DNA of 32,000 bases from NCBI GenBank assembly GCA_029379225.1, contig JAQYWR010000036.1:1132-33131 (forward strand), written 5' to 3'. The notes beneath the pieces are model-generated. The model worked only from the letters and a program-made list of their open reading frames with translations. It was not told where the DNA came from and did not search any database. A program made the translations under genes and the position numbers. This document shows positions 15,350 to 31,646 of the stretch, one piece after another (positions within the stretch are counted from its first letter, which is position 1; every line of letters starts with the position of its first letter). The DNA comes from Nostoc sp. S4 (GTDB taxonomy: Bacteria > Cyanobacteriota > Cyanobacteriia > Cyanobacteriales > Nostocaceae).

Positions 15350-15919
15350 ATGATAGCCTCCCCCCAACAAATTTATCTTACCCCTGAACAGTACATCCAA
15401 CTAGAGGAACAAAACCCTGTCAAACATGAATACATCGACGGCTACATCTATGCAATGGCTGGAGCGCTTGACCCACATGTTACCATTGCTGGAAACCTGT
15501 TTGCTCTCCTCCGTAATCATATACGCGGTTCTAGTTGTCGTGTTTACATCGCCGACATGAAAGCCCGAATTGAATCTCTAAATCGCTTTTATTATCCCGA
15601 TGTCATGGTTACTTGCGACTCACGAGACCGAGAAACACCAGCGTATAAAAGCTTTCCCTGTTTAATTGTTGAAGTTTTATCTAATTCTACTGAAGCCTTT
15701 GACCGGGGTGACAAGTTCGCTGATTATCAAGCACTCGAAACCTTGAAAGAATACGTTTTAATTAATACAAAACGTCAACGAGTTGAGTGTTTTCGCCGCA
15801 ATGATGAGGGACTGTGGGTTTTGCAATCTTACACAGCAGAAGATAAATCATTTCGACTCAACAGCGTGGATTTTCAAGAAACAATAGCAGCACTTTACGA
15901 AGATGTAGTTTTTGAATAA
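15350..15919 (+). CDS. Uma2 family endonuclease (DUF820, PD-(D/E)xK-like)
   Basis: HEYIDGYIYAMAGA .. YYPDVMVTCD .. PCLIVEVLSNSTEAFDRGDKFADYQ .. LKEYVLIN is the characteristic Uma2 pattern, a family abundant in cyanobacteria. Confidence 0.85.
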   Translation: MIASPQQIYLTPEQYIQLEEQNPVKHEYIDGYIYAMAGALDPHVTIAGNLFALLRNHIRGSSCRVYIADMKARIESLNRFYYPDVMVTCDSRDRETPAYKSFPCLIVEVLSNSTEAFDRGDKFADYQALETLKEYVLINTKRQRVECFRRNDEGLWVLQSYTAEDKSFRLNSVDFQETIAALYEDVVFE

Positions 15920-18750: not shown

Positions 18751-19290
18751 GGGGACTTCTAGAAAATAAATTAACGTGAATGCTCATATATTGTCTGCCC
18801 AATTTACTCAATCAAAAAACCTCTAAGAGGTTTTACTACGCAAAACCGTCCCTCTGCGAATCCCACAGGGACAGACTTGAACTAGAGTTTAAGACAGGGA
18901 GAGGTTTGTCGAACTCACGTTAAATTATCCAATTTATGCGGACTTTCCGGTTCACCCCACAAAATTGAATAATTTATTTCTTGGTAATCCCTCATTCGGC
19001 TTTCTGTGCAATGCCTACTTATTTTTAGATACTATTTTTCTCTCATGGCTATTATTTCGTAAATTTGGCGTTCACCACACCAAACTAAATCAATATCAGT
19101 ATTCAACCTGTAAGATTTTTGTTAACAATAAAAATCTCTAGATTAATGGATTATCAAGAGTTTTACATGCCAAAATAGCATTAATTTTTCTGATAATAAA
19201 TTTATTTTATTTTAAAATTACCAATAATCATACGTATAATACTATCAAAGACTTACAGAAAATATAATCTTATATTTTTTATTTATATTG

Positions 19291-21354
19291 ATGAGTAGTA
19301 AATTTCTGGATGGACGCTACCAAATAATAAAAGTTCTCAATTATCAGGAAAAAATAAAAAACTATCTAGTGGAAGATGTTAATTTTTCTGGTAGTCGATA
19401 TGTAGTTAAGCAGTTACGTTCTACTAGTAACAATCCCCAAAATTTAACAATCCTACGGCATTTGTTTGCCAGTAAGGTAGCAACTTTAGAAAAACTAGGC
19501 CAGGAACATAGCCAAATCCAAAAGCTAGTTGGCTATTTTGAAGAAAATGAAGAATTTTATCTAGTCCAAGAATTTATTGCTGGTAATCCTTTAACTGACG
19601 AAATTTTACCAGGACAACCTCTGAGGGAAGACCAAGTAATCAATCTTTTATCAGAAATCTTAAAAATTTTGGTATCTATACATACTTCTGGTGTAATTCA
19701 TCGAAATATTAAACCAGCAAATATTATTCGCCGAGAGTCAGATAAAAAGTTGGTTTTGGTTGATTTTAGTACTGTTAATGAAGCTGTCAATACTGTTGAT
19801 AATATTGAATATATGCCTGTGGAACAGATTAACGGTAACCTGAAATACAACAGTGATATTTATGCTTTAGGTATAGTTGCGATCGCTGCACTTTTGGGTT
19901 TAACAACAAACGAAATATCTAATTTGCGAAGCCAGAAAAATCGGCTAACAAGTGAAATTATTTGGCCAAATAAAAATTTAAAAATTAATAGAAACTTAAA
20001 AAGAATTATCAATAAAATGGTACGCAATGATTATCGAAAGCGCTACCAGTATGCAACTGAAGTTTTAGACGATTTAAAAAATTTAACAAATCTTGAGCAT
20101 CAGCAAAAGCAATATCAAAAAATAATCATAGTGATGATAGGGATAGCTGGTTGTATAACATTAGGTATTGTTGCATGGTTTTTCCAGTTATCAAAATTTG
20201 AAAATAATCCGCAAAAAAAATTATATCAAGAGGGAGTAAATAAATATGATGAAGGAAATTATGAAGGAGCAGTTAAAGATTTTAATCAGCTGATTGAATT
20301 AGAACCGCAAAATGCTTTGGCATATAATAAGCGAGGCGATGCTTATTATCGATTAGGAGACTATGAACAAGCACAAGCAGACTCTAGTCAAGCGATTTTG
20401 CTCAATCCTCAAGATGCTAATCCTTATTATGACCGAGGATTTGCTTTGTATGAATTAGCCAAATATAAAGAAGCGCTCGCTGACTATACCCAAGCGATTA
20501 AGTTAAATTCTCAGAATGCATACGCTTATTATGGTCGGGGATTAGCCCGCGTTCAGCTTAAGGATCGTAAAGGGGCATTAGGAGATTTTAGCAAAGCGAT
20601 CGCCATCAAACCTGAGTATACGGATGCCTATTTACAACGCGGTATTCTCCGCCGTCGCCTCGAACTCAGACAAGCAGCAATCCAAGATTTTGATGCCATA
20701 ATTAAGATTAATCCTAGTGATGCCAGAGCCTATTATCAAAGGGGTCTAACTCAAGTTATTAACAAGCAAAAATATGCAGCACTGCAAGATTATTCAGATG
20801 CAATTAATATCAATCCCAAATATATAGAAGCTTATTTAACTCGTGGTGATATTTACAGCGATTTAGGAAACCAAATAGAAGCTACTGAAGATTATAATAC
20901 TATTTTAAAGCTCGATCCAAAATTTATTGATGCTTACATTCACCGAGGTATTCACCACTTTTCGTTTGGAGATTATAAAGCTGCTATTGAAGATTATACC
21001 GAAGCAGTGAAACTAAATCCTAATGATGCAGCAGCTTATAATAATCGTGGTAACGCCTATCTCGAATTAGGAAATAAAAAAGCTGCAAATCAAGATTATT
21101 CCCAAGCGATCGCCATTGATAAAAACTATGCCTTAGCCTATTATAATCGGGGTGTAATTCGCGCCAAGCAGAAAAATAAACAGGGAGCGATCGCAGATTT
21201 TCAAAAAGCTGCAAAACTATTTCAACAGCAAGGAGAAAAAGATAGTTATCAAGATGCCTACAGAGAAATTGCAATTCTGCAAAATAAGTCTGCACTAACG
21301 ACAACTACTCGTCCTAAATCTGGAAAAAGAGATAAAAAAGGAACTAGAGACTAG
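19291..21354 (+). CDS. Membrane-spanning Ser/Thr-kinase-like protein (predicted pseudokinase) with about 10 C-terminal TPR repeats
   Basis: The fold matches Hanks-type cyanobacterial kinases: RYQIIK, VVKQL, EFYLVQEFI, VIHRNIKPANII, LVLVDFS, YMPVEQ, SDIYALG. One TM helix follows (IIIVMIGIAGCITLGIVAWFF), then 34-aa TPR units (AxAYxxRGxAYxxLGxYxxAIxDYxxAIxLNP). The ATG at 19291 follows the TTG at 19288. Confidence 0.8.
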   Translation: MSSKFLDGRYQIIKVLNYQEKIKNYLVEDVNFSGSRYVVKQLRSTSNNPQNLTILRHLFASKVATLEKLGQEHSQIQKLVGYFEENEEFYLVQEFIAGNPLTDEILPGQPLREDQVINLLSEILKILVSIHTSGVIHRNIKPANIIRRESDKKLVLVDFSTVNEAVNTVDNIEYMPVEQINGNLKYNSDIYALGIVAIAALLGLTTNEISNLRSQKNRLTSEIIWPNKNLKINRNLKRIINKMVRNDYRKRYQYATEVLDDLKNLTNLEHQQKQYQKIIIVMIGIAGCITLGIVAWFFQLSKFENNPQKKLYQEGVNKYDEGNYEGAVKDFNQLIELEPQNALAYNKRGDAYYRLGDYEQAQADSSQAILLNPQDANPYYDRGFALYELAKYKEALADYTQAIKLNSQNAYAYYGRGLARVQLKDRKGALGDFSKAIAIKPEYTDAYLQRGILRRRLELRQAAIQDFDAIIKINPSDARAYYQRGLTQVINKQKYAALQDYSDAININPKYIEAYLTRGDIYSDLGNQIEATEDYNTILKLDPKFIDAYIHRGIHHFSFGDYKAAIEDYTEAVKLNPNDAAAYNNRGNAYLELGNKKAANQDYSQAIAIDKNYALAYYNRGVIRAKQKNKQGAIADFQKAAKLFQQQGEKDSYQDAYREIAILQNKSALTTTTRPKSGKRDKKGTRD

Positions 21355-21510: not shown

Positions 21511-22587
21511 TTAATGAACTGTTCCTCTCAATGATTCCGCATCAACGGGTTTGATTAGGTAAATCTGTAACAGATGCCCAACTATGGAAGCTATCAGAGG
21601 TAATTTTTGGCAGAACTTAATAATTTTTGGGCGATTGTTATTGTTAATCTCTGCTAACTTGAGATTAAGGTCAGAACATTGCTCTAACCGCCGGAAAAAG
21701 TCAGGGTGATTTGTATTCAAAGTCAGAGGAAATGCCCGTGCGGCGGTATTATTTGTCTGTTGAATAACTCTGGTATTATATTCTCGTGGGTCAATACCAA
21801 TGGATTGATAGAATTTTGCCCGTTCAAATACTGTTAAAGTGTGAGTAGTAAACACACTCAACAAAAAGAACCGTACCCACAATCTAGCTTTCCAATTGTT
21901 CCATAATTGGGGTTGCGATCGCAGCAGCGCTTTGAAGAAATCTCCATGTCGATTTTCATCTTGACACCAACTCTCAAACTTCCGAAATAGTGGATAAATT
22001 TGGTGTTCTGGATGTTTTTGCAGATGACGATACACTAAAATGTAGCGCCAATAACCAATTTTTTCAGACAAGTAAACTGCGTAAATAATCCACTCTGGTG
22101 GAAAGAAGGTATAAGTGCGATTTTTGGTTAAATAACTTAAGTCAAGGGAAAGATTAAAATCTGCCATTGACTTATTCAAAAATCCTGCATGGCGTGCTTC
22201 ATCTCGTGCCATAAAATTAAACGCTTCCGCCAGAATCGGATTCCGATTTTTCAAACGGCGCGATAATTCTTTAAATAGCAGAAATCCAGAAAACTCTGAG
22301 GTACAAGAACGTTCCAAAAAGTCAATAAAAGCAAGGCGTGTTTCCCCATCAATACGATCCCAGCATTGGTTAAATTCTTCATCGCGTACAAAATGATGCC
22401 GATTATAATCAGCTCGTAACTCCTCGACAATTGCTCGTAACTCCTCCTCCTGTGGCGAAATATCTAACTGCGCTGCTGCCTCAAAGTCAGTAGTGTAAAG
22501 CCGGGGTGTTAATAATGTTTCCTGAACAGGCGCTTTTATACCTGGCTTCAACAACCCAGGTTCCGGGGTTTCCAGAGACTTAACCAT
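21511..22587 (-). CDS. acsF: Mg-protoporphyrin IX monomethyl ester oxidative cyclase (AcsF/ChlA family)
   Basis: Di-iron carboxylate motifs are present (DEARHAGFLNK and DENRHGDFF), and the overall sequence reads ..TPRLYTTDF..FLERSCTSEFSGFLLFKEL... Length is 358 aa. Confidence 0.92.
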   Translation of the reverse strand: MVKSLETPEPGLLKPGIKAPVQETLLTPRLYTTDFEAAAQLDISPQEEELRAIVEELRADYNRHHFVRDEEFNQCWDRIDGETRLAFIDFLERSCTSEFSGFLLFKELSRRLKNRNPILAEAFNFMARDEARHAGFLNKSMADFNLSLDLSYLTKNRTYTFFPPEWIIYAVYLSEKIGYWRYILVYRHLQKHPEHQIYPLFRKFESWCQDENRHGDFFKALLRSQPQLWNNWKARLWVRFFLLSVFTTHTLTVFERAKFYQSIGIDPREYNTRVIQQTNNTAARAFPLTLNTNHPDFFRRLEQCSDLNLKLAEINNNNRPKIIKFCQKLPLIASIVGHLLQIYLIKPVDAESLRGTVH

Positions 22588-22607
22588 AGGAATCCTTTTA
22601 TTAATTA

Positions 22608-22651
22608 ATGCCTTACAAGTTATATAAACATATATAATTGTTAATAGGCAT
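22608..22651. promoter_or_regulatory. Nested inverted repeat in the acsF 5' region (candidate operator)
   Basis: ATGCCT-N6-TTATATA-N4-TATATAA-N8-AGGCAT, located 21-64 nt upstream of the acsF start codon in the 475-bp divergent intergenic region. No protein binding is known. Confidence 0.3.
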
Positions 22652-23062
22652 CAGTTAAATTATTGAAAGCAAATTGTCAGAAATGAACAGATTGACAGCA
22701 ACTGCTTGTATTCATTTTGCTTAATGAAAATCTGTTAAGTAAGAAACTCAATAAACTATTAGTGGATGCAAGTTATACCTTTTATCATTGGAAGTAGTTA
22801 GAGATAGAAATTGTGTATTCAAACTCCTAACTCCTTAAATCTAAAAAAAATTGAATAACTTAATAGTTATGCAAATATTAATAGTTAAATAATCTTATGA
22901 AAAATAACAATAGCTGGGGTCTACATCGGCAATGGTACTTGCTGGATAGAGTGATGCAGATCCTTTCTAAACCTAGAATAACAATCTTTTAACTCTGGTA
23001 CTGGTAGGCATCGTGAGTAATGACTGCCTGAAAACTTATACTTGTACATCAAGGAAGCAACA

Positions 23063-23779
23063 ATGAGTAGCAATCTCGCCATCAAACTGCGCTCTGGAAC
23101 TCAACAAGCCCACAGTTCAGCGGAAAACGTGGGATTTATGAAATGTTTTCTCAAAGGAGTTGTAGATAGAGACTGCTTCGCTAAGTTCTTAAGTAACTTA
23201 TATTACATCTACAGCGAACTAGAAGCAGCTATAGTAAGCCATGTAGACCATCCTGTGGTTAGTGCAGTTTATTTTCCTGAACTGGATCGCCAAGCTGCGC
23301 TCGAAAAAGACATGATGTTCTATTATGGGGATAATTGGAGAAACAAACTCACCCCCTCATCTGCTGCCCAGACGTACATTGACCGCATTCGGGAAATTTC
23401 TGCTAACGAGCCAGTTTTATTACTAGGTCATGCTTACACTCGCTACATGGGCGACCTCTCTGGGGGTCAAATGCTACAAAAAGTTGCTCAATCAGCCCTG
23501 AAGCTTTCTGGCTACGAAGGCACATCATTCTATAATTTTGAGCAAATTCCTGATAAAAAGGCATTTAAAGATAAGTATCGTCAGGTATTAAATGAACTGC
23601 CTATTGATGATACTACAGCAGAACGAATTGTTGCAGAAGCCAATAATGCCTTTGCCTTAAATTTACGGATGGCTCAAGAACTAGAAGGAAATTTAATCAA
23701 AGCACTCGGTCAAGTCCTGTTTAATAACTTAACTCGCTTTGAGAACCCAGCTAGCACCGAAATTACTGCGGCTAATTAA
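23063..23779 (+). CDS. Heme oxygenase (ho2-like by gene context)
   Basis: LRSGTQQAHSSAENVGFMKCFLKGVVDRDCFAKFLSNLYYIYSELE and LLGHAYTRYMGDLSGGQ are canonical HO motifs. The ATG at 23063 is preceded by AAGGAAG. Confidence 0.9.
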   Translation: MSSNLAIKLRSGTQQAHSSAENVGFMKCFLKGVVDRDCFAKFLSNLYYIYSELEAAIVSHVDHPVVSAVYFPELDRQAALEKDMMFYYGDNWRNKLTPSSAAQTYIDRIREISANEPVLLLGHAYTRYMGDLSGGQMLQKVAQSALKLSGYEGTSFYNFEQIPDKKAFKDKYRQVLNELPIDDTTAERIVAEANNAFALNLRMAQELEGNLIKALGQVLFNNLTRFENPASTEITAAN

Positions 23780-23780
23780 T

Positions 23781-23822
23781 TTTGTCATTTGTTATTTGTC
23801 ATTGGTCATTTGTCATTGGGTA
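23781..23822. repeat. STRR-type heptamer tandem repeat (TTTGTCA/TTGGTCA, six units)
   Basis: tttgtca tttgtta tttgtca ttggtca tttgtca ttgggta. It starts immediately after the heme oxygenase stop codon. Confidence 0.8.
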
Positions 23823-23931
23823 GTTAGTTATTTCTCCCTCATCCCTCCGTTGGTAAATTTCGACTACCGCGAAGTCGAACCACATCTCCCCACCTCCCTA
23901 TTTCCTTACACATTTATTGGAAAGTAACTCA

Positions 23932-25314
23932 ATGGTTTTTCTATTACCTGGTGTCAAATTTGATTTGGATTTGATTCAAAAATATGACACTCGCGCACCC
24001 AGATATACTAGCTACCCACCTGCTACAGAGTTAAACGAAACATTCACCCAAACTGATTTTAAAGCTGCGATCGCCGCCTCGAATCAACGCAAAACTCCTC
24101 TTTCTTTGTATTTCCATATTCCCTTTTGCCAAAGCGCTTGCTACTTCTGTGGCTGTAACACGGTAATTTCTAACAATAAGAATATTGCTAAACCTTATTT
24201 GGAGTATTTAGTTCAAGACATCAAAAACACCGCAGCCTTAATCGATTCACAAAGAAAGGTACTGCAAATTCACTGGGGTGGTGGTACTCCTAACTATTTG
24301 GAACGCGACCAAGTAGAAGTTTTATGGAAAAATATCAATCGTTATTTTACCATCGATCCCCAAGCAGAAATTTCAATTGAAATTAATCCTCGCTACATTG
24401 ATAGAAACTACATTTTATTTCTCAGACGAATTGGATTTAATCGCATTAGTTTTGGAATTCAAGATTTTAATCGTCAAGTTCAAGTAGCTGTGAATCGCGT
24501 CCAGCCTGAAGAAATGTTGTTTGATGTCATGAGTTGGATTAAGGAAGCGGAGTTTGAAAGTGTGAATGTAGACCTAATTTATGGTTTACCTTATCAAACC
24601 TGCCAAACATTTCGGGAAACGATAAAAAAGACTATCGAATTAGACCCTGACCGAATTGTTGTTTTTAATTTTGCTTATGTTCCGTGGCTAAAACCGATAC
24701 AAAAAAATATTCCTCAAGAAGCCTTACCCCCAGCCCAGGAAAAGTTAGACATTTTAAAAATGACTATTGAAGAATTGACGAATAATCAATATCTATTTAT
24801 TGGGATGGATCATTTTGCTAAAAATAATGACGAACTAGCGATCGCTCAACGTAATGGTACTCTCAAGCGTAATTTCCAGGGATATACTACCCACGCAGAA
24901 ACAGAACTTTTTGGTTTTGGTGCCACATCAATCAGTATGCTAGAAGATGCCTATGCTCAAAACCACAAAGAATTAAAGGACTATTATCAGGCTCTTACAG
25001 CAGGTGATTTACCTATTAGTAAAGGTATCAAGCTGACTCAAAATGACATCATCAGACGAGATGCAATCATGTCTATCATGTCTCATTTTCAACTGCATAA
25101 GCAAGATCTAGAAAACAAGTATCATATTAGTTTTGATGAATATTTCTTTGAGGAAGTAGAAGCATTAAAACCACTAGAAGCTGATGGACTGGTGAATTTA
25201 TCAAAAAATTATATTCAAATCACCGACATCGGGAGATTACTAGTAAGAAATATTGCTGTGATTTTTGATAGTCATACAAGAAATCGAAATTCAAAATTCT
25301 CTCGTGCAATTTAA
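23932..25314 (+). CDS. hemN: Oxygen-independent coproporphyrinogen III oxidase (radical SAM, HemN)
   Basis: The CxxxCxxC box is present (FCQSACYFCGC), plus RAPRYTSYP, GGGTPN and GYTT motifs. The likely start is the ATG at 23932. Confidence 0.9.
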   Translation: MVFLLPGVKFDLDLIQKYDTRAPRYTSYPPATELNETFTQTDFKAAIAASNQRKTPLSLYFHIPFCQSACYFCGCNTVISNNKNIAKPYLEYLVQDIKNTAALIDSQRKVLQIHWGGGTPNYLERDQVEVLWKNINRYFTIDPQAEISIEINPRYIDRNYILFLRRIGFNRISFGIQDFNRQVQVAVNRVQPEEMLFDVMSWIKEAEFESVNVDLIYGLPYQTCQTFRETIKKTIELDPDRIVVFNFAYVPWLKPIQKNIPQEALPPAQEKLDILKMTIEELTNNQYLFIGMDHFAKNNDELAIAQRNGTLKRNFQGYTTHAETELFGFGATSISMLEDAYAQNHKELKDYYQALTAGDLPISKGIKLTQNDIIRRDAIMSIMSHFQLHKQDLENKYHISFDEYFFEEVEALKPLEADGLVNLSKNYIQITDIGRLLVRNIAVIFDSHTRNRNSKFSRAI

Positions 25315-26340: not shown

Positions 26341-27033
26341 ATGTTCTTTCACAAAAAAGATCCTATTCACGTAGTAAATGTTAACGAAGCAAACCCTCGT
26401 TTCGCTCAATTACTTCTAGAGCAGTTTGGCGGAGCTACTGGAGAACTAAGTGCAGCATTGCAATATTGGGTTCAATCGTTCCATGTAGAAAATGCTGGAA
26501 TTAAAGACATGCTCCAAGATATTGCAATCGAGGAGTTTGGGCATTTAGAAATGGTTGGTAAACTGATTGAAGCTCATACAAAAAATACCGATCAAACAGA
26601 CGCATATAAGAGTACTCTCTTTGCAGTCCGAGGCATAGGGCCTCATTTTCTCGATAGTCAAGGAAATGCTTGGAGTGCAAATTACTTGAATGAGGGTGGA
26701 GATGTAGTACGTGATTTGAGAGCTAATATTGCAGCGGAAGCTGGCGCTCGTCAAACTTATGAAGCGTTGATTAAATTAGCAACTGACGAAGGAACTAAAG
26801 AAACTTTAGTCCACCTTTTAACACGGGAAATCTCACACACCCAGATGTTTATGAAAGCTCTAGATTCACTGGGTAAGTTAACAGATCCATTCTTTGGTAA
26901 TATTAAACCAGATGATACTGTTGCTCTTTACTACAACCTGTCTACAAACGGTAATGGTAAAGATGAGCGTGGTCCTTGGAATTCTGAGCCAACATTCAAA
27001 TACATTGCTAATCCATTAGAAAGTCACTCTTAA
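26341..27033 (+). CDS. Manganese catalase family protein
   Basis: ANPRFAQLLLEQFGGATGELSAALQYWVQSFH .. IAIEEFGHLEMVGKLI .. AAEAGARQTYE .. EISHTQMF is the di-Mn catalase signature. Length is 230 aa. Confidence 0.9.
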   Translation: MFFHKKDPIHVVNVNEANPRFAQLLLEQFGGATGELSAALQYWVQSFHVENAGIKDMLQDIAIEEFGHLEMVGKLIEAHTKNTDQTDAYKSTLFAVRGIGPHFLDSQGNAWSANYLNEGGDVVRDLRANIAAEAGARQTYEALIKLATDEGTKETLVHLLTREISHTQMFMKALDSLGKLTDPFFGNIKPDDTVALYYNLSTNGNGKDERGPWNSEPTFKYIANPLESHS

Positions 27034-27158: not shown

Positions 27159-27185
27159 AGGGGCGCACAAATGTGCGCCTTTATT
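27159..27185 (+). terminator. Rho-independent terminator after the Mn catalase gene
   Basis: The stem aggggcgcac / gtgcgccttt (core ggcgcac / gtgcgcc) has a short loop and is followed by ttattaatt. It belongs to the same hairpin family as 9371-9398. Confidence 0.6.
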
Positions 27186-27485
27186 AATTGCTATAAATAT
27201 TAAGTCACACATGATGTTATAAATGTAAACTACAAAGATTAGTGGTATAGCTATCATACTAAATCAGTGAACTTAAAAGGCAAAACGCATTTTGGAGGTG
27301 TTAGCATTGCAAAAAATATAGCTTTAGTCACACCCTTGTTGTTCTACCTATGTTTTAAAATGTGGGTTGCCCACACCCTACACCCTACCCCCTTTGAACT
27401 CCTGCCTTCTGCTAGAAATCAGACATCCTCTAGTTTTAAAGCAAATGTTAAAGTTATCAAAGATAACTAAAATCAAGGAGCTTCT

Positions 27486-29378
27486 GTGAATAGTTCATCA
27501 AAAAATAATCTAGTAAATTTACTATTAACTGATAGCTTGGCAGAGGCTAGACAGCAATATAAATACAACTATATTCATATTCCACCAATTGCGATGGTGG
27601 ATGAGCTTCCGGTTGCGGAACAGTTCTCTACTAACTGGCTGTTTCTGCTGGCGCAAGAATTACGCATACTTTTTGTTAATACCTTAATTGTAAATCGGGG
27701 AAATCAAGGTTCTCCCTCAGTGCGGGATGATGTCAAAAAATTTATTCTAGAAGCCTTAATCAAAGGAGCCATACCTTTCAAGCTGAGTGTTATTGTCAAA
27801 CTTCTACAAATAGTTCCCCAATTTTTTATTAAAAGCTTATCTAAGGATCTAAGAGAAATTGATGATTTATTGTATTCATTACTAAGAGAAAGTGGACTAT
27901 CAATTTTTGAAGATGCTCTGGATCAAGTTTTGAACCTATTGTATAAAGATCAGCCATTAGGCCATGTCACGAGTTTAAAAGATTACGAAAAATTACTGCC
28001 AGAAATTCCGCTACCAATGATCGCCAGCACATATGAGCAAGATGAAGTATTCGCCTATATGCAGGTAGCAGGCTTCAATCCGTTGATGATCGAGCGAGTG
28101 ATAAGTTTAAGCGATCGCTTCCCTGTCACAGGTGAAGATTATCAAGCTGTCATGGGGAGTGAAGACTGCTTAAGTGCAGCAGGTGAAGAAGGCAGACTCT
28201 ATCTTGCAGATTATAGAATTTTAGAAGGTGCAATTAACGGTACTTATCCACACGAGCAAAAGTATCTTTATGCTCCCTTGGCATTGTTCGCCTTACCCAG
28301 AGGCTCCCAAGCAAACCGTCTACTACGCCCTATAGCTATTCAATGCGGTCAAACTCCAGGCCCAGATTACCCCATCATTAGCCCTAGCTCTGGCAAATAT
28401 GCTTGGTTATTTGCCAAAACAATTGTTCAGATAGCAGATGCAAACTTCCATGAAGCTGTTAGCCACTTAGGCCGAACTCACTTGTTTGTCGGCCCTTTTG
28501 TGATGGCAACCTATCGACAACTACCAATTAATCATCCTCTGCGAATTTTATTACATCCCCATTTTGAGGGAACTTTAGCAATCAACGATGCTGCACAACG
28601 GGTTTTGATTGCTGCGGGCGGTGGAGTTGACAGACTACTTTCATCAAGTATTGATAACTCTAGGGTTTTAGCGGTGCGTGGACTGCAAAGCTATGGGTTT
28701 AATGACGCCATGTTACCAAAACAATTCCAACAACGTGGTGTAGACGATGTCAATTTGTTACCAGTTTATCCTTATCGGGATGATGCATTGCTAGTGTGGC
28801 AGGCTATTTATCAGTGGGTATCGGATTATCTCAAACTTTACTACTTTAACGACAATGACATTAAACAAGATATAGCACTACAAGCCTGGGCAGCCGAAGC
28901 ACAAGCTGATGATGGCGGACGTGTCCTGGATTTTGGTGAGAATGGTGGAATTGAGACGTTTGACTACTTAGTTGATGCTGTTACTCTGATTATCTTTACT
29001 GCTAGTGCCCAACATGGAGCAGTCAACTTTCCCCAAAAGGACTTGATGAGTTATGCTCCAGCATTACCATTAGCTGGTTACTTGCCAGCTTCAAAGCTCA
29101 AAACTCAAGTGACCGAGCAAGATTATTTAAATTTACTTCCACCTTTAGATCAAGCACAAAGGCAACTAAACCTTTTATCCTTACTGGGGTCTGTCTATTA
29201 CAACAGGCTAGGTGATTACCCAAAAGGATACTTTACAAATCCACAGGTAGAACCTTTGTTACAAGCTTTTCAGGAAAATCTGCAACAGGTTGAAGATACT
29301 ATCAATCAACGTAACTTGCACCGCCCGCCCTATGAGTATCTTCTACCTTCAAGAATCCCCCAAAGCATTAACATTTAA
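27486..29378 (+). CDS. Lipoxygenase (bacterial/cyanobacterial type, 630 aa)
   Basis: Iron ligand motifs are present: FHEAVSHLGRTH (H322, H327), SAQHGAVNF (H510, N514) and a C-terminal Ile (PQSINI). WLFAKT also matches the LOX consensus WLLAK. The GTG start sits 5 nt after AAGGAG (27475-27480). Confidence 0.9.
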   Translation: MNSSSKNNLVNLLLTDSLAEARQQYKYNYIHIPPIAMVDELPVAEQFSTNWLFLLAQELRILFVNTLIVNRGNQGSPSVRDDVKKFILEALIKGAIPFKLSVIVKLLQIVPQFFIKSLSKDLREIDDLLYSLLRESGLSIFEDALDQVLNLLYKDQPLGHVTSLKDYEKLLPEIPLPMIASTYEQDEVFAYMQVAGFNPLMIERVISLSDRFPVTGEDYQAVMGSEDCLSAAGEEGRLYLADYRILEGAINGTYPHEQKYLYAPLALFALPRGSQANRLLRPIAIQCGQTPGPDYPIISPSSGKYAWLFAKTIVQIADANFHEAVSHLGRTHLFVGPFVMATYRQLPINHPLRILLHPHFEGTLAINDAAQRVLIAAGGGVDRLLSSSIDNSRVLAVRGLQSYGFNDAMLPKQFQQRGVDDVNLLPVYPYRDDALLVWQAIYQWVSDYLKLYYFNDNDIKQDIALQAWAAEAQADDGGRVLDFGENGGIETFDYLVDAVTLIIFTASAQHGAVNFPQKDLMSYAPALPLAGYLPASKLKTQVTEQDYLNLLPPLDQAQRQLNLLSLLGSVYYNRLGDYPKGYFTNPQVEPLLQAFQENLQQVEDTINQRNLHRPPYEYLLPSRIPQSINI

Positions 29379-29396
29379 CTTAACCTTTTCAAAACT

Positions 29397-30746
29397 ATGG
29401 AACTCAAAAATAAAGTTCTCAAAAACCACGCTCGCCAGATCGAACTGTCCTACCGTCTTGCCAAAGTGGGTTATAACACAGCAATTGGCAAGCTGCTGCG
29501 CTTGCGTGCTTATTATAGCGATGCCTTAATTATGCTCAAAGCATGGAGAGACTTTCTCTATATCCGCCGAGATAATATTGGGGACAAATTTTTTGCGGTA
29601 GACCATGCAATTATGCACACATCTCATACCCAAGTTAAGGAACTGATGCACATCCAGCCGCAACTCCGGGGAAATGATTTAGGTATTATCAGAATTTTAG
29701 CTCCTAGTTACTTACTCAATAATCCCCTCAGTTTGGGAACAAACGGGAATGAACATACAGGTGTTCGTGCTGTATTATTGCAAGCCATACCAGATCCATC
29801 TGCACAAGTAGAAGTTTTATCGCATCTCATAAATCAATGTCTATCAAAAGCAGCCAAGCAGGGACAACTGCATATCGGTAACGATTTGCCAAAAATAATA
29901 CTGGAGATTCTGCACCAAATTATTCTTCAAGTATCATTAACTGAAGAAGAACTTAACGCATCAATTAATTATAATAAAAGTTTACCTCTGGCATCTCTAC
30001 CTAATTTCATCAGCAAATATCTACTAGCATTTAAAACAGCACCGAACATTAAACATCGTAAATCTTTAATTGAGAAATATAAACAATCTCCTAAATGGAC
30101 ATTCTACTGGGAAATAGGACAAAAATATCAGTTAAATGAACACCAAATAGCTAACAGTATTTTCGATATGATTCATATTGCTGGAACTGCTGGTACAAGT
30201 GCGCTGTTAGGCTCGGTAATTGGTATTTTGTGCTTAGAAAATGCTCTAAAAAATGATGTAGTATCCGAGATGAATTTACTCTGGAATGAACTGGAAACTC
30301 CTAATAAATATGCTCTTGAAGAATCCCATCTCCTTAATAAAGTAATTTTGGAAACTGCAAGGCTATATCCACCTGTAAGATTTGTTAGCCAACTTACTAC
30401 TAACTCCGGTGAAGTTGAAATAGGGGGACAAAAATGCCCATTCCAAGCAGGAACTCGTTTACTTGGCTCTATTTTTACAGCAAATCGAGATGTCCATAGA
30501 TATGAAAATCCAGATAATTTTGATATCACGCGAGATTTTACTGATATCTTATCTTGGAATGGTGAAGGTCATGAGCGGGTTTGTCCTGGGAGAAATTTGT
30601 CAGTTGGCTTCATTAAAATTTTCTGTTTTTATCTTTTTAAGAAATATAGATGGGATTCATTTACAGAAGTGAAATGGGATTTATCAAATGTAACTTCCGT
30701 TACTCCGAATAACTTATCGCTACAAGGATTTTCTCAACAATCATGA
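29397..30746 (+). CDS. Cytochrome P450, atypical (I-helix acid-alcohol pair absent)
   Basis: EXXR is present (ETAR, then LYPP), with a PERF-like NFDITRDF and the heme-thiolate loop NGEGHERVCPGRN (Cys codon 30582-30584). The I-helix reads IAGTAGTS (30180-30197) instead of AGx(D/E)T(T/S). The start lies 18 nt after the LOX stop. Confidence 0.85.
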   Translation: MELKNKVLKNHARQIELSYRLAKVGYNTAIGKLLRLRAYYSDALIMLKAWRDFLYIRRDNIGDKFFAVDHAIMHTSHTQVKELMHIQPQLRGNDLGIIRILAPSYLLNNPLSLGTNGNEHTGVRAVLLQAIPDPSAQVEVLSHLINQCLSKAAKQGQLHIGNDLPKIILEILHQIILQVSLTEEELNASINYNKSLPLASLPNFISKYLLAFKTAPNIKHRKSLIEKYKQSPKWTFYWEIGQKYQLNEHQIANSIFDMIHIAGTAGTSALLGSVIGILCLENALKNDVVSEMNLLWNELETPNKYALEESHLLNKVILETARLYPPVRFVSQLTTNSGEVEIGGQKCPFQAGTRLLGSIFTANRDVHRYENPDNFDITRDFTDILSWNGEGHERVCPGRNLSVGFIKIFCFYLFKKYRWDSFTEVKWDLSNVTSVTPNNLSLQGFSQQS

Positions 30747-31324
30747 CTAAAATAATTGAGAAAAAACAACTCGACAATATTGCTACCTGGATGATACCCA
30801 TTAAAGAAACGAACTTACCAAATGTCCTCAAAGGCGTGTTCTTTATGGATGGTAATCCACTTCCAGAAGATTGCCTCACAATGTACAACTTAGAATGGGA
30901 TATTCACAAACGCACCCTAGTTCTACCTGTCTCTGCTCCTTTGCAGTGGACTTTTCACAGCACAATTTATGGATGGTTATTACTTCGTTCAGTACAATTA
31001 ACTCGACTTAGTTACAAAATAGAGTTTATAGATGAAAGTTTACAACATGGGCAAATTCTAGCTTTTATTTTAGGGGTGCAAGTTCCTAAATGGGTGGTAG
31101 ATGCTACTATACACCAAGAAGAAAATTCTCAAGATATTTGGCAACGTAAAAACCTTTGGTTTGGAGGAATTTTACGGCTTGGGGAGTATACCTTACGTAA
31201 AATTGTAGATGAAAATGGTAATTACACTCCTGCTTTTGAGCCAATGCTGGCCAAGGTTCAAAGTGAGTGTCTAGTAATTACCAGAGGCGTAAATTGTAAA
31301 CATAAAAAAGAGCCAGAGATTTAG
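30743..31324 (+). CDS. Hypothetical 193-aa protein, translationally coupled to the P450 gene
   Basis: Its ATG overlaps the P450 TGA as ATGA (30743-30746). It has no TM segment and no motif I can assign. A stem-loop (31310-31335) spans its stop codon. Confidence 0.6.
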   Translation: MTKIIEKKQLDNIATWMIPIKETNLPNVLKGVFFMDGNPLPEDCLTMYNLEWDIHKRTLVLPVSAPLQWTFHSTIYGWLLLRSVQLTRLSYKIEFIDESLQHGQILAFILGVQVPKWVVDATIHQEENSQDIWQRKNLWFGGILRLGEYTLRKIVDENGNYTPAFEPMLAKVQSECLVITRGVNCKHKKEPEI

Positions 31325-31385: not shown

Positions 31386-31646
31386 CTAAATTCTGCCCAG
31401 GTTATGCAACCCCAAAATAGTGCCTACTCCTAAGATATGACCAAAGGCAGTACTTGCTAATAAAGCAGGTAAACCGAAACCACCAAAGAAATTGTTTGAT
31501 GGTAGTGCTGGTTCTGCATTGGGATACTTGATAGTAGATTTAGCAAAGGCAATGGCAATTATGTTGGCGATAATCATAATCAGTCCAACTACAGGACTCC
31601 ATTGCAGGGGTGCGGTTGCAGCAGCAAGTAATGTTGAAGTAAACAC
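31386..31646 (-). CDS. psaK: Photosystem I reaction centre subunit PsaK
   Basis: FTSTLLAAATAPLQWSPVVGLIMIIANIIAIAF..KYPNAEPALPS..FFGGFGLPALLASTAFGHILGVGTILGLHNLGRI matches PsaK along its full length. The start is the GTG at 31646. Confidence 0.9.
   Translation of the reverse strand: MFTSTLLAAATAPLQWSPVVGLIMIIANIIAIAFAKSTIKYPNAEPALPSNNFFGGFGLPALLASTAFGHILGVGTILGLHNLGRI

What the first reader, a model, noticed from the sequence alone, without database searches (positions are those of the whole stretch)
27475..31324. Three-gene oxylipin-type operon: lipoxygenase, a P450 lacking the O2-activation pair, and an orphan protein
Seen in sequence: AAGGAG then GTG 27486. The LOX stop is 18 nt from the P450 ATG (29397). 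The P450 stop overlaps the next start as ATGA (30743-30746). All three genes are on one strand, bounded by a terminator hairpin upstream (27159-27185) and convergent psaK downstream. The LOX keeps every iron ligand (H322/H327, H510/N514, C-terminal Ile). The P450 keeps EXXR, a PERF-like motif and the Cys loop (GHERVCPGRN), but its I-helix is IAGTAGTS, with Ala-Gly where the conserved (D/E)-T proton-relay pair sits. No ferredoxin or reductase gene is in the unit. Established knowledge: P450s that rearrange fatty-acid hydroperoxides or endoperoxides without O2 or redox partners (CYP74 allene oxide synthase, hydroperoxide lyase and divinyl ether synthase; CYP5A; CYP8A) have lost that pair. As far as I recall, the characterised cyanobacterial LOX partners are catalase-related haem proteins rather than P450s. 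Inference: the LOX hydroperoxide is passed to this P450 (AOS-, HPL- or epoxyalcohol-synthase-like chemistry), and the third protein handles the unstable product. That would be a bacterial LOX-P450 oxylipin pathway of a kind not characterised in cyanobacteria.
Basis: partly seen in the sequence, partly recalled or inferred. Interest (0 to 1): 0.82.

Follow-up and report, generated by a model that had tools for sequence, protein, structure and literature searches.

The report
Conserved lipoxygenase, P450 and beta-barrel gene trio
A cyanobacterial three-gene unit pairs a lipoxygenase with an unstudied haem enzyme (P450 family CYP227) that lacks the usual oxygen-activating residues, plus an unannotated beta-barrel protein; the same three parts occur fused into single proteins in other organisms, which points to an uncharacterised route for making oxidised fatty-acid products.

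Summary
The window is from Nostoc sp. S4.

- **Synteny.** In 33 non-redundant loci from Nostocales, Leptolyngbya and Lyngbya, LOX lies directly upstream of the P450 in 28 of 29 assessable cases. ORF3 lies directly downstream in 30 of 31. Flanking genes differ between genomes.
- **The P450.** It belongs to family CYP227, which is named but has no published function. Ala-Gly sits at the acid-alcohol position in all 30 aligned members. It is not a CYP74.
- **The "orphan".** It is not an orphan. It is a confident beta-rich fold with no Pfam or PDB match, and 299 representative clusters across bacteria and eukaryotes match its profile.
- **Fusions.** Chytrid fungi fuse it between a haem-thiolate peroxidase and a LOX. 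One metagenomic protein fuses it to a CYP227-like P450 and a LOX. Another fuses it to a divergent P450 just downstream of a LOX.

These fusions strongly support one functional module and favour peroxide-driven haem chemistry. The exact reaction and the barrel's role remain inferred. No paper in the library describes this module.

The parts
27159..27185 (+). Intrinsic-terminator-like hairpin that ends the upstream Mn-catalase gene and forms the 5' boundary of the unit
   Evidence: Sequence read; terminator scan hit at 27163-27176 with a T tail. Mn catalase at 26341-27033 is PF05067, E 2e-49.
27475..27480 (+). Shine-Dalgarno-like AAGGAG, 5 nt before the LOX GTG start
   Evidence: Sequence.
27486..29378 (+). 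Iron lipoxygenase, 630 aa, of the bacterial type with a helical N-terminal region
   Evidence: PF00305, E 1e-57. Best solved relatives are 8x8f (E 1e-121), Pseudomonas aeruginosa LOX 4g32 and the 569-aa '15-lipoxygenase' 5med.
28449..28466 (+). LOX iron ligands His322 and His327 (HEAVSH)
28593..28595 (+). Ala370 at the position that governs product stereochemistry in LOXs (Ala = S, Gly = R). The position was assigned by matching AINDAAQ to the INTLAR motif recalled from memory.
   Evidence: for the residue. The rule and the motif match come from my own knowledge (Coffa and Brash); this is an inference.
29013..29027 (+). LOX iron ligands His510 and Asn514
29373..29375 (+). C-terminal Ile630, whose carboxylate is the fifth iron ligand
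   Evidence: aligned to the C-terminal Ile of 8x8f.
29397..30746 (+). Cytochrome P450 of family CYP227, 449 aa
   Evidence: PF00067 at 47.5 bits. 163 relatives at 60-100% identity, all named ones cyanobacterial. AF2 model pTM 0.80 with a P450 fold, TM 0.6-0.7 to solved P450s. The published CYP227A1 forward primer matches the start codon region of orthologues exactly.
30177..30200 (+). I-helix motif IAGTAGTS (residues 261-268), with Ala265-Gly266 where the acid-alcohol (D/E-T) pair normally sits
   Evidence: A262, G263, T264, G266 and S268 are invariant, and A265 and T267 at least 90% conserved, in 30 family members. Register fixed by HMM alignment to CYP76AH1. AF2 breaks the helix at 263-266.
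30555..30590 (+). Haem-thiolate loop WNGEGHERVCPG with Cys396. Trp387 lies 9 residues before the Cys, against 7 for the usual Phe.
   Evidence: W387, H392, R394, C396 and G398 are invariant. The spacing is read from the sequence.
30743..31324 (+). ORF3, 193 aa: a beta-rich domain of a family absent from Pfam, partner of LOX and haem-thiolate enzymes. Its start overlaps the P450 stop (ATGA).
   Evidence: AF2 pLDDT 90.6, 12 strands and 3 short helices. No significant PDB fold match; the weak top hits are lipocalin-type barrels. 161 close relatives. Superfamily and fusions.
31386..31646 (-). Convergent psaK, the 3' boundary; not part of the unit
   Evidence: TIGR03049, E 2e-33. Present next to the cassette only in the two closest Nostoc genomes.

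Best explanation
This is a conserved three-component oxylipin module. Step 1 (well supported): the iron lipoxygenase oxygenates a C18 polyunsaturated fatty acid to an S-configured hydroperoxide, probably the 13S product. Step 2 (inferred): the CYP227 P450 takes that hydroperoxide as substrate and uses its O-O bond in place of O2 plus electrons. The ferric haem-thiolate cleaves the peroxide and the resulting radical or cation is rearranged into an epoxy alcohol, allene oxide/ketol or chain-cleavage product. The enzyme has replaced the proton-relay pair with Ala-Gly, and no reductase is linked to it. Step 3 (inferred, least certain): ORF3 is a fatty-acid/oxylipin-binding beta-barrel that works physically with the haem enzyme. 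It either delivers the hydroperoxide or captures and steers the reactive product. The three proteins probably act as a complex, since other lineages encode them as one polypeptide.
For: **Linkage.** In 33 non-redundant loci carrying a CYP227 orthologue, LOX is directly upstream on the same strand in 28 of 29 assessable loci. ORF3 is directly downstream in 30 of 31. Gaps are 19-579 and 2-334 nt (loci). Flanking genes are unrelated in Nostoc, Leptolyngbya PCC 7375 and Lyngbya aestuarii. Two different LOX types (56-97% and 42-45% identity to the window LOX) sit beside the same P450/ORF3 pair. P450 and ORF3 have nearly the same number of relatives (163 and 161), from the same taxa and in several cases from contigs of identical length.

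**Fusions.** The ORF3 profile hits the following, with whole-library E-values of 1e-10 to 1e-17.
- Chytrid proteins built as Peroxidase_2 + ORF3-like + Lipoxygenase, from Chytriomyces, Physocladia and Entophlyctis; Podochytrium and a second Chytriomyces protein (P0279) have Peroxidase_2 + ORF3-like only. In Physocladia the peroxidase and ORF3-like domains lie in one uninterrupted exon. The haem-thiolate PCP and EHD motifs are intact in the two chytrid sequences I read, Chytriomyces P0284 and Physocladia P0302.
- P0316, a single 1107-aa ORF built as ORF3-like + CYP227-like P450 + LOX-like. The CYP227 profile scores E 5e-23 and matches the family-specific N-terminal part.
- P0398, an ORF3-like domain fused to a very divergent P450-like domain, directly downstream of a LOX whose C-terminus is 75% identical to the window LOX.

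**Peroxide chemistry.** Ala265-Gly266 replaces the acid-alcohol pair throughout the family. Gly also occupies the Thr position in the P450 domains of P0316 (FAGVIGT) and P0398 (AALQGP). In chytrids the haem partner is a peroxidase/peroxygenase-type domain, which by established knowledge uses peroxides and not O2 plus reductant. CYP5, CYP8A and CYP74 cleave fatty-acid peroxides without redox partners (PMC9214053). The ExxR, R379 and Cys396 elements are intact, so haem binding is kept.

**ORF3 as a binder.** The model is confident and beta-rich, and its weak fold neighbours are lipocalin-type ligand binders. The residues conserved across 132 superfamily domains include R135, Y149 and R/K153, a set typical of carboxylate anchoring (this reading is an inference).
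Against: - No enzymology exists, and no tool here can show hydroperoxide turnover.
- Loss of the acid-alcohol pair is not diagnostic. By my own knowledge, some true monooxygenases such as EryF also lack the Thr. T264 and T267 are conserved nearby and could support O2 chemistry.
- Lack of an adjacent reductase is normal for bacterial P450s.
- The P450 shows no specific affinity to CYP74, CYP5A or CYP8A. CYP74A2 is only rank 10 at E 1.6e-6 in the profile search, and no CYP74 or CYP8A structure is in the top 50 fold matches.
- One locus (L022) has the P450 without LOX or ORF3.
- ORF3-like genes also stand alone in Sorangium, a Chitinophagaceae bacterium and a 64%-GC metagenomic contig (organism unknown), with no LOX or P450 in the roughly 2-7 kb of flank examined. 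The domain is therefore not restricted to this pathway.
- The P450 model has low-confidence stretches (residues 65-116 and 361-394).
- Co-transcription is inferred only from spacing.
Confidence: 0.6

Rival explanations
1. The P450 is an ordinary O2- and ferredoxin-dependent monooxygenase. It hydroxylates or epoxidises the fatty acid or the reduced LOX product (HODE/HOTE), drawing electrons from the cell's general ferredoxin pool. ORF3 is a lipid carrier.
For: The haem-thiolate core is intact, with ExxR, R379 and Cys396. T264 and T267 flank the Ala-Gly and could substitute in proton delivery. The closest solved sequences and folds are monooxygenases and fatty-acid P450s (BM3, BioI, CYP3A, CYP51), at scores no worse than CYP74. 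Most cyanobacterial P450s have no linked reductase (my own knowledge).
Against: Ala-Gly at the proton-relay position is invariant across the family, and Gly holds the Thr position in two independently fused relatives. In chytrids the same slot is filled by a peroxide-using haem-thiolate peroxidase domain. When fused to a reductase in E. coli, CYP227A1 was among the 20 P450s screened on 47 small molecules, and only CYP110E1 was reported active. None of the substrate classes named in that paper is a fatty acid, so this is weak evidence.
Confidence: 0.2
2. The module is a protective system and not a biosynthetic one. The haem enzyme acts as a lipid-hydroperoxide peroxidase or reductase that detoxifies peroxidised fatty acids, with ORF3 extracting them from membranes.
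For: In this window the cassette follows a Mn catalase and a haem oxygenase / HemN / rubrerythrin-domain group. Haem-thiolate peroxidase domains replace the P450 in chytrids. Lipocalin-like folds often bind damaged lipids (my own knowledge).
Against: A detoxifying system has no need for a dedicated enzyme that makes the hydroperoxide, yet LOX is the most constant neighbour (28 of 29 loci) and is fused in the same polypeptide. The catalase neighbourhood is found only in the two closest genomes.
Confidence: 0.1
3. ORF3 is itself the product-forming catalyst, for example a cyclase or hydrolase acting on an allene oxide or epoxy intermediate, functionally like plant allene oxide cyclase. It is not a passive binder. 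This is a sub-variant of the best explanation.
For: Plants pair a P450 allene oxide synthase with a small beta-barrel cyclase, and a complex containing a 13-LOX and AOS is reported in the abstract of PMC6627107. ORF3 is translationally coupled to the P450 here (ATGA) and fused to haem-thiolate domains elsewhere. Within the cyanobacterial subfamily the invariant polar residues include D36, N38, C44, Q68, K92, D97, R135 and C176; H72 is at least 90% conserved.
Against: There is no Pfam allene-oxide-cyclase hit, and no AOC or dirigent structure appears among the top 50 fold matches. Few polar residues are conserved across the whole superfamily. Stand-alone homologues occur without LOX or P450.
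Confidence: 0.25
4. The adjacency has no functional meaning: three unrelated genes that happen to travel together.
For: One locus has the P450 alone. The gaps between genes reach several hundred nt in some genomes.
Against: Order and strand are conserved in 28 of 29 and 30 of 31 loci across three orders with changing flanks. Independent fusions of the same three domain types exist in other lineages.
Confidence: 0.03

Closest known systems
Plant LOX / CYP74 (allene oxide synthase, hydroperoxide lyase, divinyl ether and epoxyalcohol synthases) / allene oxide cyclase pathway
   Same: A LOX feeds a P450 that has lost the O2-activating I-helix residues and needs no reductase (PMC9214053; PMC10813956). 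In the AOS branch a small beta-barrel protein then acts on the P450 product. The three-part logic is the same.
   Different: CYP227 is not a CYP74. CYP74A2 is a remote hit (E 1.6e-6, rank 10). The Cys loop is lengthened by about 2 residues against 9 in CYP74; the figure of 9 is from my own knowledge. ORF3 shows no detectable relation to allene oxide cyclase. The genes are clustered in an operon-like unit, which plants do not have.
Catalase-related haemoprotein-LOX fusions of cyanobacteria (Anabaena PCC 7120, Acaryochloris marina) and corals
   Same: A bacterial or cyanobacterial LOX is coupled to a haem enzyme that rearranges the hydroperoxide without O2 or reductant (PMC11719350; PMC11507377).
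   Different: The haem partner there is a Tyr-ligated catalase fold. Here it is a Cys-ligated P450. Those systems are not described with a third beta-barrel component.
Fungal dioxygenase-P450 fusion enzymes (linoleate diol, allene oxide and epoxy alcohol synthases)
   Same: A fatty-acid dioxygenase is joined to a self-sufficient P450 that isomerises the hydroperoxide (PMC13049297, abstract; the passages read concern the cyanobacterial dioxygenases).
   Different: The oxygenase there is a haem, cyclooxygenase-like dioxygenase and not a non-haem iron LOX. The P450 subfamilies are different. No ORF3-like domain is reported.
CYP152 fatty-acid peroxygenases (P450 BS-beta, SP-alpha, OleT)
   Same: They are the top structural neighbours of the CYP227 model (E about 2e-9, TM 0.63-0.70). 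They are fatty-acid-binding, peroxide-driven P450s without an acid-alcohol pair.
   Different: By my own knowledge, CYP152 enzymes carry Arg-Pro in the I-helix to hold the substrate carboxylate and use H2O2. CYP227 has Ala-Gly. Sequence similarity is marginal (E 1e-5 with the profile), and BM3, CYP3A and CYP51 score almost as well by fold.
Red-algal and Shewanella LOXs with an N-terminal two-barrel 'SRPBCC' domain (PhLOX, SvLOX)
   Same: A beta-barrel lipid-binding-type domain is attached to a LOX, and its removal abolishes hydroperoxide-lyase output (PMC11507377). UniRef names one ORF3 homologue from Emiliania huxleyi 'SRPBCC domain-containing protein'.
   Different: I could not test homology because I had no PhLOX or SvLOX sequence. 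ORF3 has no Pfam SRPBCC-type hit, and no START or Bet v 1 structure is among its top fold matches. Those enzymes have no separate haem partner.

Membership tests
Lipoxygenase (PF00305), iron type | Significant match to the family profile | tested here: met
   E 1.3e-57, 196 bits against a cut-off of 23.6. E 1e-121 to solved bacterial LOX 8x8f.
Lipoxygenase (PF00305), iron type | Five metal ligands: two His in HxxxxH, then His and Asn/His in HxxxN, plus the C-terminal Ile carboxylate | tested here: met
   H322, H327, H510, N514 and I630.
Lipoxygenase (PF00305), iron type | Dioxygenation of a 1,4-pentadiene fatty acid, with defined position and chirality | not testable with these tools
   Only a prediction is possible: Ala370 at the stereo-control position suggests S chirality (the rule and the motif match are from my own knowledge). 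Cyanobacterial LOXs from Rivularia and Calothrix are listed as omega-6 (13S) enzymes in PMC13319228, but I did not check their identity with cassette LOXs.
Cytochrome P450 superfamily | Profile match, P450 fold, ExxR, and Cys in the haem loop | tested here: met
   PF00067 at 47.5 bits against 22.8. TM 0.6-0.7 to many P450 structures. E319/R322, R379 and C396 are invariant.
CYP227 (named P450 family of Nostoc punctiforme) | Sequence identity with the founding member CYP227A1 (family level is 40% or more by the nomenclature rule) | tested here: inconclusive
Its published forward primer (19 gene-specific nt, encoding MTLKDK) matches exactly at the P450 start codon in L012, L013 and L015, which are 73-74% identical to the window P450. 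The reverse primer has no exact match in any of the 39 loci held.
CYP74 (allene oxide synthase / hydroperoxide lyase / divinyl ether synthase) | Closest sequence relatives are CYP74 members | tested here: not met
   CYP74A2 (3dam) is rank 10 at E 1.6e-6, no better than CYP3A or CYP76. It is absent from the single-sequence hits and from the top 50 fold matches.
CYP74 (allene oxide synthase / hydroperoxide lyase / divinyl ether synthase) | Long (about 9-residue) insertion in the Cys-ligand loop | tested here: not met
   Trp387 to Cys396 is 9 residues, against 7 for the canonical Phe-to-Cys distance: about 2 extra residues. The CYP74 feature is from my own knowledge.
CYP74 (allene oxide synthase / hydroperoxide lyase / divinyl ether synthase) | Loss of the I-helix acid-alcohol pair | tested here: met
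   Ala265-Gly266.
CYP74 (allene oxide synthase / hydroperoxide lyase / divinyl ether synthase) | Turnover of fatty-acid hydroperoxide without O2, NADPH or a redox partner | not testable with these tools
   Needs enzyme assays.
CYP152 peroxygenases | I-helix Arg-Pro that anchors the fatty-acid carboxylate for H2O2 activation | tested here: not met
   The I-helix is IAGTAGTS with no Arg-Pro. Resemblance is at fold level only.
Catalase-related AOS-type partner of cyanobacterial LOX | The haem partner has a catalase fold | tested here: not met
   The partner is a P450.
Allene oxide cyclase (for ORF3) | Profile or fold match to AOC | tested here: not met
   No Pfam hit even at E 10. The profile finds nothing in the PDB. 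No AOC or dirigent entry is among the top 50 Foldseek matches.
Lipocalin / calycin-type ligand-binding barrels (for ORF3) | Fold match to lipocalins | tested here: inconclusive
   The top Foldseek hits are lipocalin-type (Tp0751, nitrophorins, odorant-binding protein), but E >= 0.01 and TM <= 0.41.
SRPBCC (START / Bet v 1-like) (for ORF3) | Profile or fold match to SRPBCC families | tested here: inconclusive
   No Pfam hit and no such structure in the top 50. UniRef nevertheless names the Emiliania homologue P0314 an SRPBCC domain protein.
Operon | Same strand, short or overlapping junctions, no internal terminator, conserved order | tested here: met
   18-nt gap and ATGA overlap. The only + strand terminator-like site inside the unit is a weak one at 29488, within the P450 coding sequence. 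Order is conserved.
Operon | A single transcript | not testable with these tools
   Needs RT-PCR or RNA-seq.

The most novel reading that the evidence does not exclude
The ORF3-type beta-barrel is a previously unrecognised, dedicated third subunit of LOX-coupled haem-thiolate hydroperoxide-transforming enzymes. It was recruited repeatedly across kingdoms: with a P450 in cyanobacteria, with a peroxygenase-type haem-thiolate domain in chytrid fungi, and as full three-domain fusions. CYP227 would then be a second, independent invention of a self-sufficient hydroperoxide-rearranging P450 outside the CYP74 clan. It may make the epoxy-alcohol-type C18 products from which cyanobacterial epoxy-lactones and trihydroxy acids could derive.
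Probability: 0.45. Interest if true: 0.85.

Novelty: new variant of a known kind. Interest (0 to 1): 0.78.

Why it matters
LOX-plus-haem-enzyme pairs are the core of oxylipin signalling and defence chemistry in plants, animals, corals and fungi. For cyanobacteria, the only characterised LOX partners found in the library are catalase-related proteins.

This module would add a P450-based route that arose independently of plant CYP74. It would give a function to a P450 family (CYP227) that is widespread in filamentous cyanobacteria and has none. It would also define a new protein domain family with about 300 representative clusters in bacteria, fungi, haptophytes and foraminifera, which databases leave blank.

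The fusion proteins turn a vague 'neighbouring genes' hint into a directly testable three-protein system that can be expressed in E. coli. It could also explain the origin of cyanobacterial C18 epoxy and trihydroxy oxylipins, for example gloeolactone. PMC10088813 says it is unclear whether gloeolactone derives wholly from a fatty acid, and I found no assigned pathway for it.

Tried and rejected
- **CYP74 membership:** rejected.
- **CYP152-type peroxygenase:** rejected as a family assignment, because there is no Arg-Pro and the sequence similarity is marginal. It remains the top fold neighbour by a hair.
- **The shifted I-helix register.** The pairwise HMMER alignment to 5ofq would place the catalytic position at the variable CLENAL stretch.
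- **ORF3 as allene oxide cyclase, dirigent, START/Bet v 1 or PLAT domain:** no support from Pfam, a PDB profile search or Foldseek.
- **The extra 192-aa ORF after ORF3 in Leptolyngbya PCC 7375 as a paralogue:** no similarity.
- **P0344/P0364 N-terminal domain as a catalase-related haemoprotein:** suggested to me by RxTH and ARMS motifs, but phmmer against the PDB found nothing. Left unverified.
- **Mn catalase, psaK and the haem oxygenase / HemN group as parts of the unit:** rejected, because they are linked only in the two closest genomes.
- **Structured RNA or tRNA in the window:** none found.
- **Literature:** the seven searches on this topic, for a cyanobacterial LOX-P450 pathway, CYP227, or a haem-thiolate peroxidase-LOX fusion, found no description.
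- **A poorly spent scan:** the single genome-contig scan used a single-sequence query and returned only 6 close loci. The metagenome scan with an alignment made up for it.
- **The last word-indexed protein search** with distant ORF3-like domains returned only 27 hits, with no new fusion types.

Full report
**1. The observation**

The ORF list gives LOX at 27486-29378 (630 aa, GTG start), the P450 at 29397-30746 (449 aa) and ORF3 at 30743-31324 (193 aa), all on the + strand.

- AAGGAG lies 5 nt before the GTG.
- The LOX stop and the P450 start are 18 nt apart, and the P450 stop overlaps the ORF3 start as ATGA.
- The hairpin with a T-run at 27159-27185 follows a Mn-catalase gene.
- psaK converges from downstream.
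- The LOX matches PF00305 at E 1e-57 and solved bacterial LOXs at up to E 1e-121. It has H322, H327, H510, N514 and a C-terminal Ile.
- The P450 passes the Pfam threshold, but only over its C-terminal half. It carries IAGTAGTS (261-268), ETAR, TRDF and GHERVCPG.

A profile of the family aligned to the canonical plant P450 CYP76AH1 puts that enzyme's Asp-Thr on Ala265-Gly266. The motif is almost invariant in 30 diverse members. A pairwise alignment that suggested a different register falls on a variable stretch, and I rejected it.

The window is from Nostoc sp. S4: both the P450 and ORF3 have 100% identical database entries from that genome.

**2. Conservation as a unit**

The P450 has 163 relatives and ORF3 has 161, from the same cyanobacterial taxa. 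These are Nostoc, Calothrix, Scytonema, Rivularia, Nodularia, Leptolyngbya, Leptothoe, Lyngbya and others. The listed P450 relatives are 60-100% identical to the window protein, and the listed ORF3 relatives 54-100%.

I collected 33 non-redundant loci that carry a P450 orthologue.

- A LOX lies immediately upstream on the same strand in 28 of the 29 loci with enough sequence to judge.
- ORF3 lies immediately downstream in 30 of 31.
- The surrounding genes are unrelated in Leptolyngbya PCC 7375 and Lyngbya aestuarii.
- The Mn catalase and psaK neighbours recur only in the two closest Nostoc genomes.
- The LOX itself comes in two types, 56-97% and 42-45% identical to the window LOX. Both sit next to the same P450/ORF3 pair.
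- One genome has two tandem P450 copies between LOX and ORF3.
- One locus (L022) has the P450 alone.

**3. The P450**

It is a deeply divergent P450. The best solved relatives reach only E 6e-6 with the single sequence and 1e-9 with the family profile. These relatives are a mix of clans: a bacterial P450, CYP76, CYP134, CYP3A, CYP74A2 at rank 10, BM3, CYP51 and CYP152.

The AlphaFold model (pLDDT 75.7, pTM 0.80) has a P450 fold, two long N-terminal helices, and a break in the I-helix exactly at residues 263-266. Its nearest structures are the CYP152 fatty-acid peroxygenases, BM3 and BioI, all fatty-acid enzymes, but CYP3A and CYP51 score almost as well. So it groups robustly with nothing: neither with CYP74 nor with any particular monooxygenase family.

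The haem-binding elements are invariant (ExxR, Arg379, Cys396), so it is not a haem-less derivative.

A paper that cloned all ten P450s of Nostoc punctiforme PCC 73102 lists CYP227A1 (PMC3411444). Its forward primer encodes MTLKDK and matches the first 19 nt of the P450 gene exactly in three of my loci. That is the only paper in the library that discusses this family; the few other text hits for 'CYP227' belong to an unrelated liver study. It reports activity only for another P450, in a screen whose named substrate classes do not include fatty acids.

**4. ORF3 is not an orphan**

It has no Pfam, NCBIfam or PDB sequence match, even with a family profile. Yet it folds with high confidence (pLDDT 90.6) into a domain of about twelve strands and three short helices. 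Foldseek against the PDB gives no significant match. The weak top hits are lipocalin-type ligand-binding barrels, with TM at most 0.41.

A profile search of 1.84 billion representative proteins found 299 clusters at E<=0.001 and 125 at E<=1e-10. Named members come from chytrid fungi, Emiliania huxleyi, a foraminiferan, Coleofasciculus, Sorangium and a Chitinophagaceae bacterium.

Residues conserved across 132 domains are P26, G31, N38, W69, G77, F95, W133, R135, Y149, R/K153 and G159. I read the Arg/Tyr/Arg-Lys set as what one expects for anchoring a fatty-acid carboxylate. That reading is an inference.

**5. Fusion proteins tie the three parts together**

The multi-domain hits are the most informative result.

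- **Chytrid fungi.** In Chytriomyces sp. MP71, Physocladia obscura and Entophlyctis, the ORF3-like domain sits in one protein with a Peroxidase_2 domain (PF01328, the haem-thiolate chloroperoxidase/peroxygenase family) and a lipoxygenase domain. Podochytrium and a second Chytriomyces protein (P0279) have Peroxidase_2 plus the ORF3-like domain. In Physocladia the peroxidase and ORF3-like domains are in a single uninterrupted exon, and the rest of the gene is joined by short introns, so this is not a gene-model artefact. The peroxidase domains of the two sequences I read (Chytriomyces P0284, Physocladia P0302) keep the PCP cysteine motif and the EHD motif.
- **P0316.** This is one continuous 1107-aa ORF on low-GC (24-25%) metagenomic contigs. 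It reads ORF3-like domain, then a CYP227-like P450, then a LOX-like domain. The P450 part scores E 5e-23 with the CYP227 profile, which matches the family-specific N-terminal part. It also has the I-helix FAGVIGT and the loop ILSWNGSGFRKC.
- **P0398.** This protein fuses an ORF3-like domain (44% identical to the window's) to a very divergent P450-like domain with ECARLW, GRICPGRD and an I-helix AALQGP. Its gene follows directly on a LOX whose C-terminus is 75% identical to the window LOX.

The same three functions are therefore linked in four different physical arrangements. In all three P450-type partners, the position of the conserved Thr is Gly.

**6. What this means for mechanism**

That the three proteins work together is, in my view, close to shown. 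How they work is inferred.

A haem-thiolate peroxidase domain in the slot that the P450 occupies in cyanobacteria argues that the common chemistry is peroxide-driven. The obvious peroxide is the LOX product. CYP5, CYP8A and CYP74 set the precedent: the ferric haem cleaves the O-O bond of a fatty-acid peroxide and the radical is rearranged into epoxy alcohol, allene oxide or cleavage products, with no redox partner (PMC9214053; PMC10813956).

I cannot tell which of these outcomes CYP227 gives. Ala370 in the LOX predicts S chirality, by a rule I recall from the LOX literature. Cyanobacterial LOXs from Rivularia and Calothrix are listed as omega-6 (13S) enzymes (PMC13319228), so a 13S-hydroperoxide is the likely substrate.

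From memory, epoxy-lactones and 9,12,13-trihydroxy acids isolated from Nostocales and Lyngbya would fit an epoxy-alcohol synthase. Gloeolactone is an epoxy-lactone from Gloeotrichia (PMC5450532), and it is unclear whether it derives wholly from a fatty acid (PMC10088813). This is a lead and not evidence.

ORF3 could deliver the hydroperoxide to the haem or control the fate of the reactive product. Stand-alone homologues in bacteria with no LOX or P450 in the 2-7 kb of flank examined favour a general lipid-binding fold. The tight coupling to haem-thiolate domains leaves room for a product-steering role.

**7. Caveats**

- Loss of the acid-alcohol pair also occurs in some genuine monooxygenases.
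- Absence of a linked reductase is the rule for bacterial P450s.
- The P450 model is only moderately confident, with weak regions at 65-116 and 361-394.
- Co-transcription rests on spacing alone.
- In many genomes the gaps are 50-580 nt, unlike the 18 nt and -4 nt seen here.

**8. Comparison with what is known, and novelty**

The logic matches plant LOX/CYP74/AOC, cyanobacterial and coral catalase-related-haem-LOX fusions, and fungal dioxygenase-P450 fusions. Membership in each of those families fails on a tested feature (see the membership table).

Red-algal and Shewanella LOXs carry an N-terminal two-barrel domain, labelled SRPBCC, that is needed for lyase activity (PMC11507377). One ORF3 homologue is auto-named SRPBCC in UniRef. 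A relationship is possible, but I could not test it.

Searches of the paper library found no description of a cyanobacterial LOX-P450 module, of CYP227 function, or of peroxidase-LOX fusions.

I rate this a new variant of a known kind of system, containing a new domain family. Interest is 0.78.

Noticed in passing
window 21511-25314 and 26341-27033: A rubrerythrin-domain protein (- strand), a haem oxygenase, a radical-SAM HemN-type protein and then a Mn catalase lie just upstream of the cassette. This looks like a tetrapyrrole / oxygen-stress gene group. The Mn catalase (the only member checked) is linked to the LOX cassette only in the two closest Nostoc genomes.
   Followed up: partly
L017 3893-7405: Two tandem CYP227 copies sit between LOX and ORF3 (LOX-P450-P450-ORF3). 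Both keep the AGTAGTS motif.
   Followed up: partly
L022 1524-3020: A CYP227 orthologue (65% identical) stands alone, with no LOX upstream and no ORF3 downstream. It is flanked by a 273-aa ORF that I did not annotate and by two large ORFs on the opposite strand that look, by eye, like a response regulator and a sensor kinase. It is the only exception among 33 loci.
   Followed up: partly
L009 6225-7895; L031 1875-3851; L044 3372-5396: A second LOX type, only 42-45% identical to the window LOX (556 aa in Lyngbya, 674 aa in L044), occupies the same position upstream of CYP227. The LOX was therefore exchanged while the P450/ORF3 pair was kept.
   Followed up: partly
P0344 and P0364 (690 and 709 aa, metagenomic): These are lipoprotein-like proteins with an unknown N-terminal domain of about 450 aa and a C-terminal ORF3-like domain. 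RxTHxxG and ARMS motifs reminded me of catalase-related haemoproteins, but a PDB sequence search found nothing. If confirmed, this would be a third class of haem partner.
   Followed up: partly
P0314 (Emiliania huxleyi); PMC11507377: UniRef names this ORF3 homologue 'SRPBCC domain-containing protein'. Red-algal PhLOX and Shewanella SvLOX have an N-terminal two-barrel 'SRPBCC' domain that is required for lyase activity. Homology with the ORF3 family was not tested.
   Followed up: no
L042 7001-7624; L043 6136-7672; L039 1833-2399: ORF3-like genes stand alone in Sorangium, as two tandem copies in a Chitinophagaceae bacterium, and beside a membrane protein that looked to me like an FtsX-type permease plus an AttH-family protein on a 64%-GC metagenomic contig (organism unknown). 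No LOX or P450 lies in the 2-7 kb of flank examined.
   Followed up: partly
L036 / L037 (P0316): The three-domain fusion gene sits on contigs of only 24-25% GC from an unidentified organism. In L036 the 5' 180 nt encode an Ala/Pro/Gly-rich fragment whose composition looks unlike the rest of the contig, which may point to a chimeric assembly end.
   Followed up: no
window 27267-27470: A 67-aa GTG ORF lies in the 300-nt leader between the catalase terminator and the LOX start. It is probably spurious. No Rfam family matches this leader or anywhere else in the window.
   Followed up: partly
window 12136-14211, 15350-15919, 19288-21354: An NB-ARC/TPR protein, a Uma2-family putative endonuclease and a Ser/Thr kinase with TPR repeats lie further upstream. 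They are typical Nostoc accessory genes, with no apparent link to the cassette.
   Followed up: no
L007 10134-10712: Leptolyngbya PCC 7375 has an extra 192-aa gene with no Pfam hit directly after ORF3. It is not similar to ORF3.
   Followed up: yes
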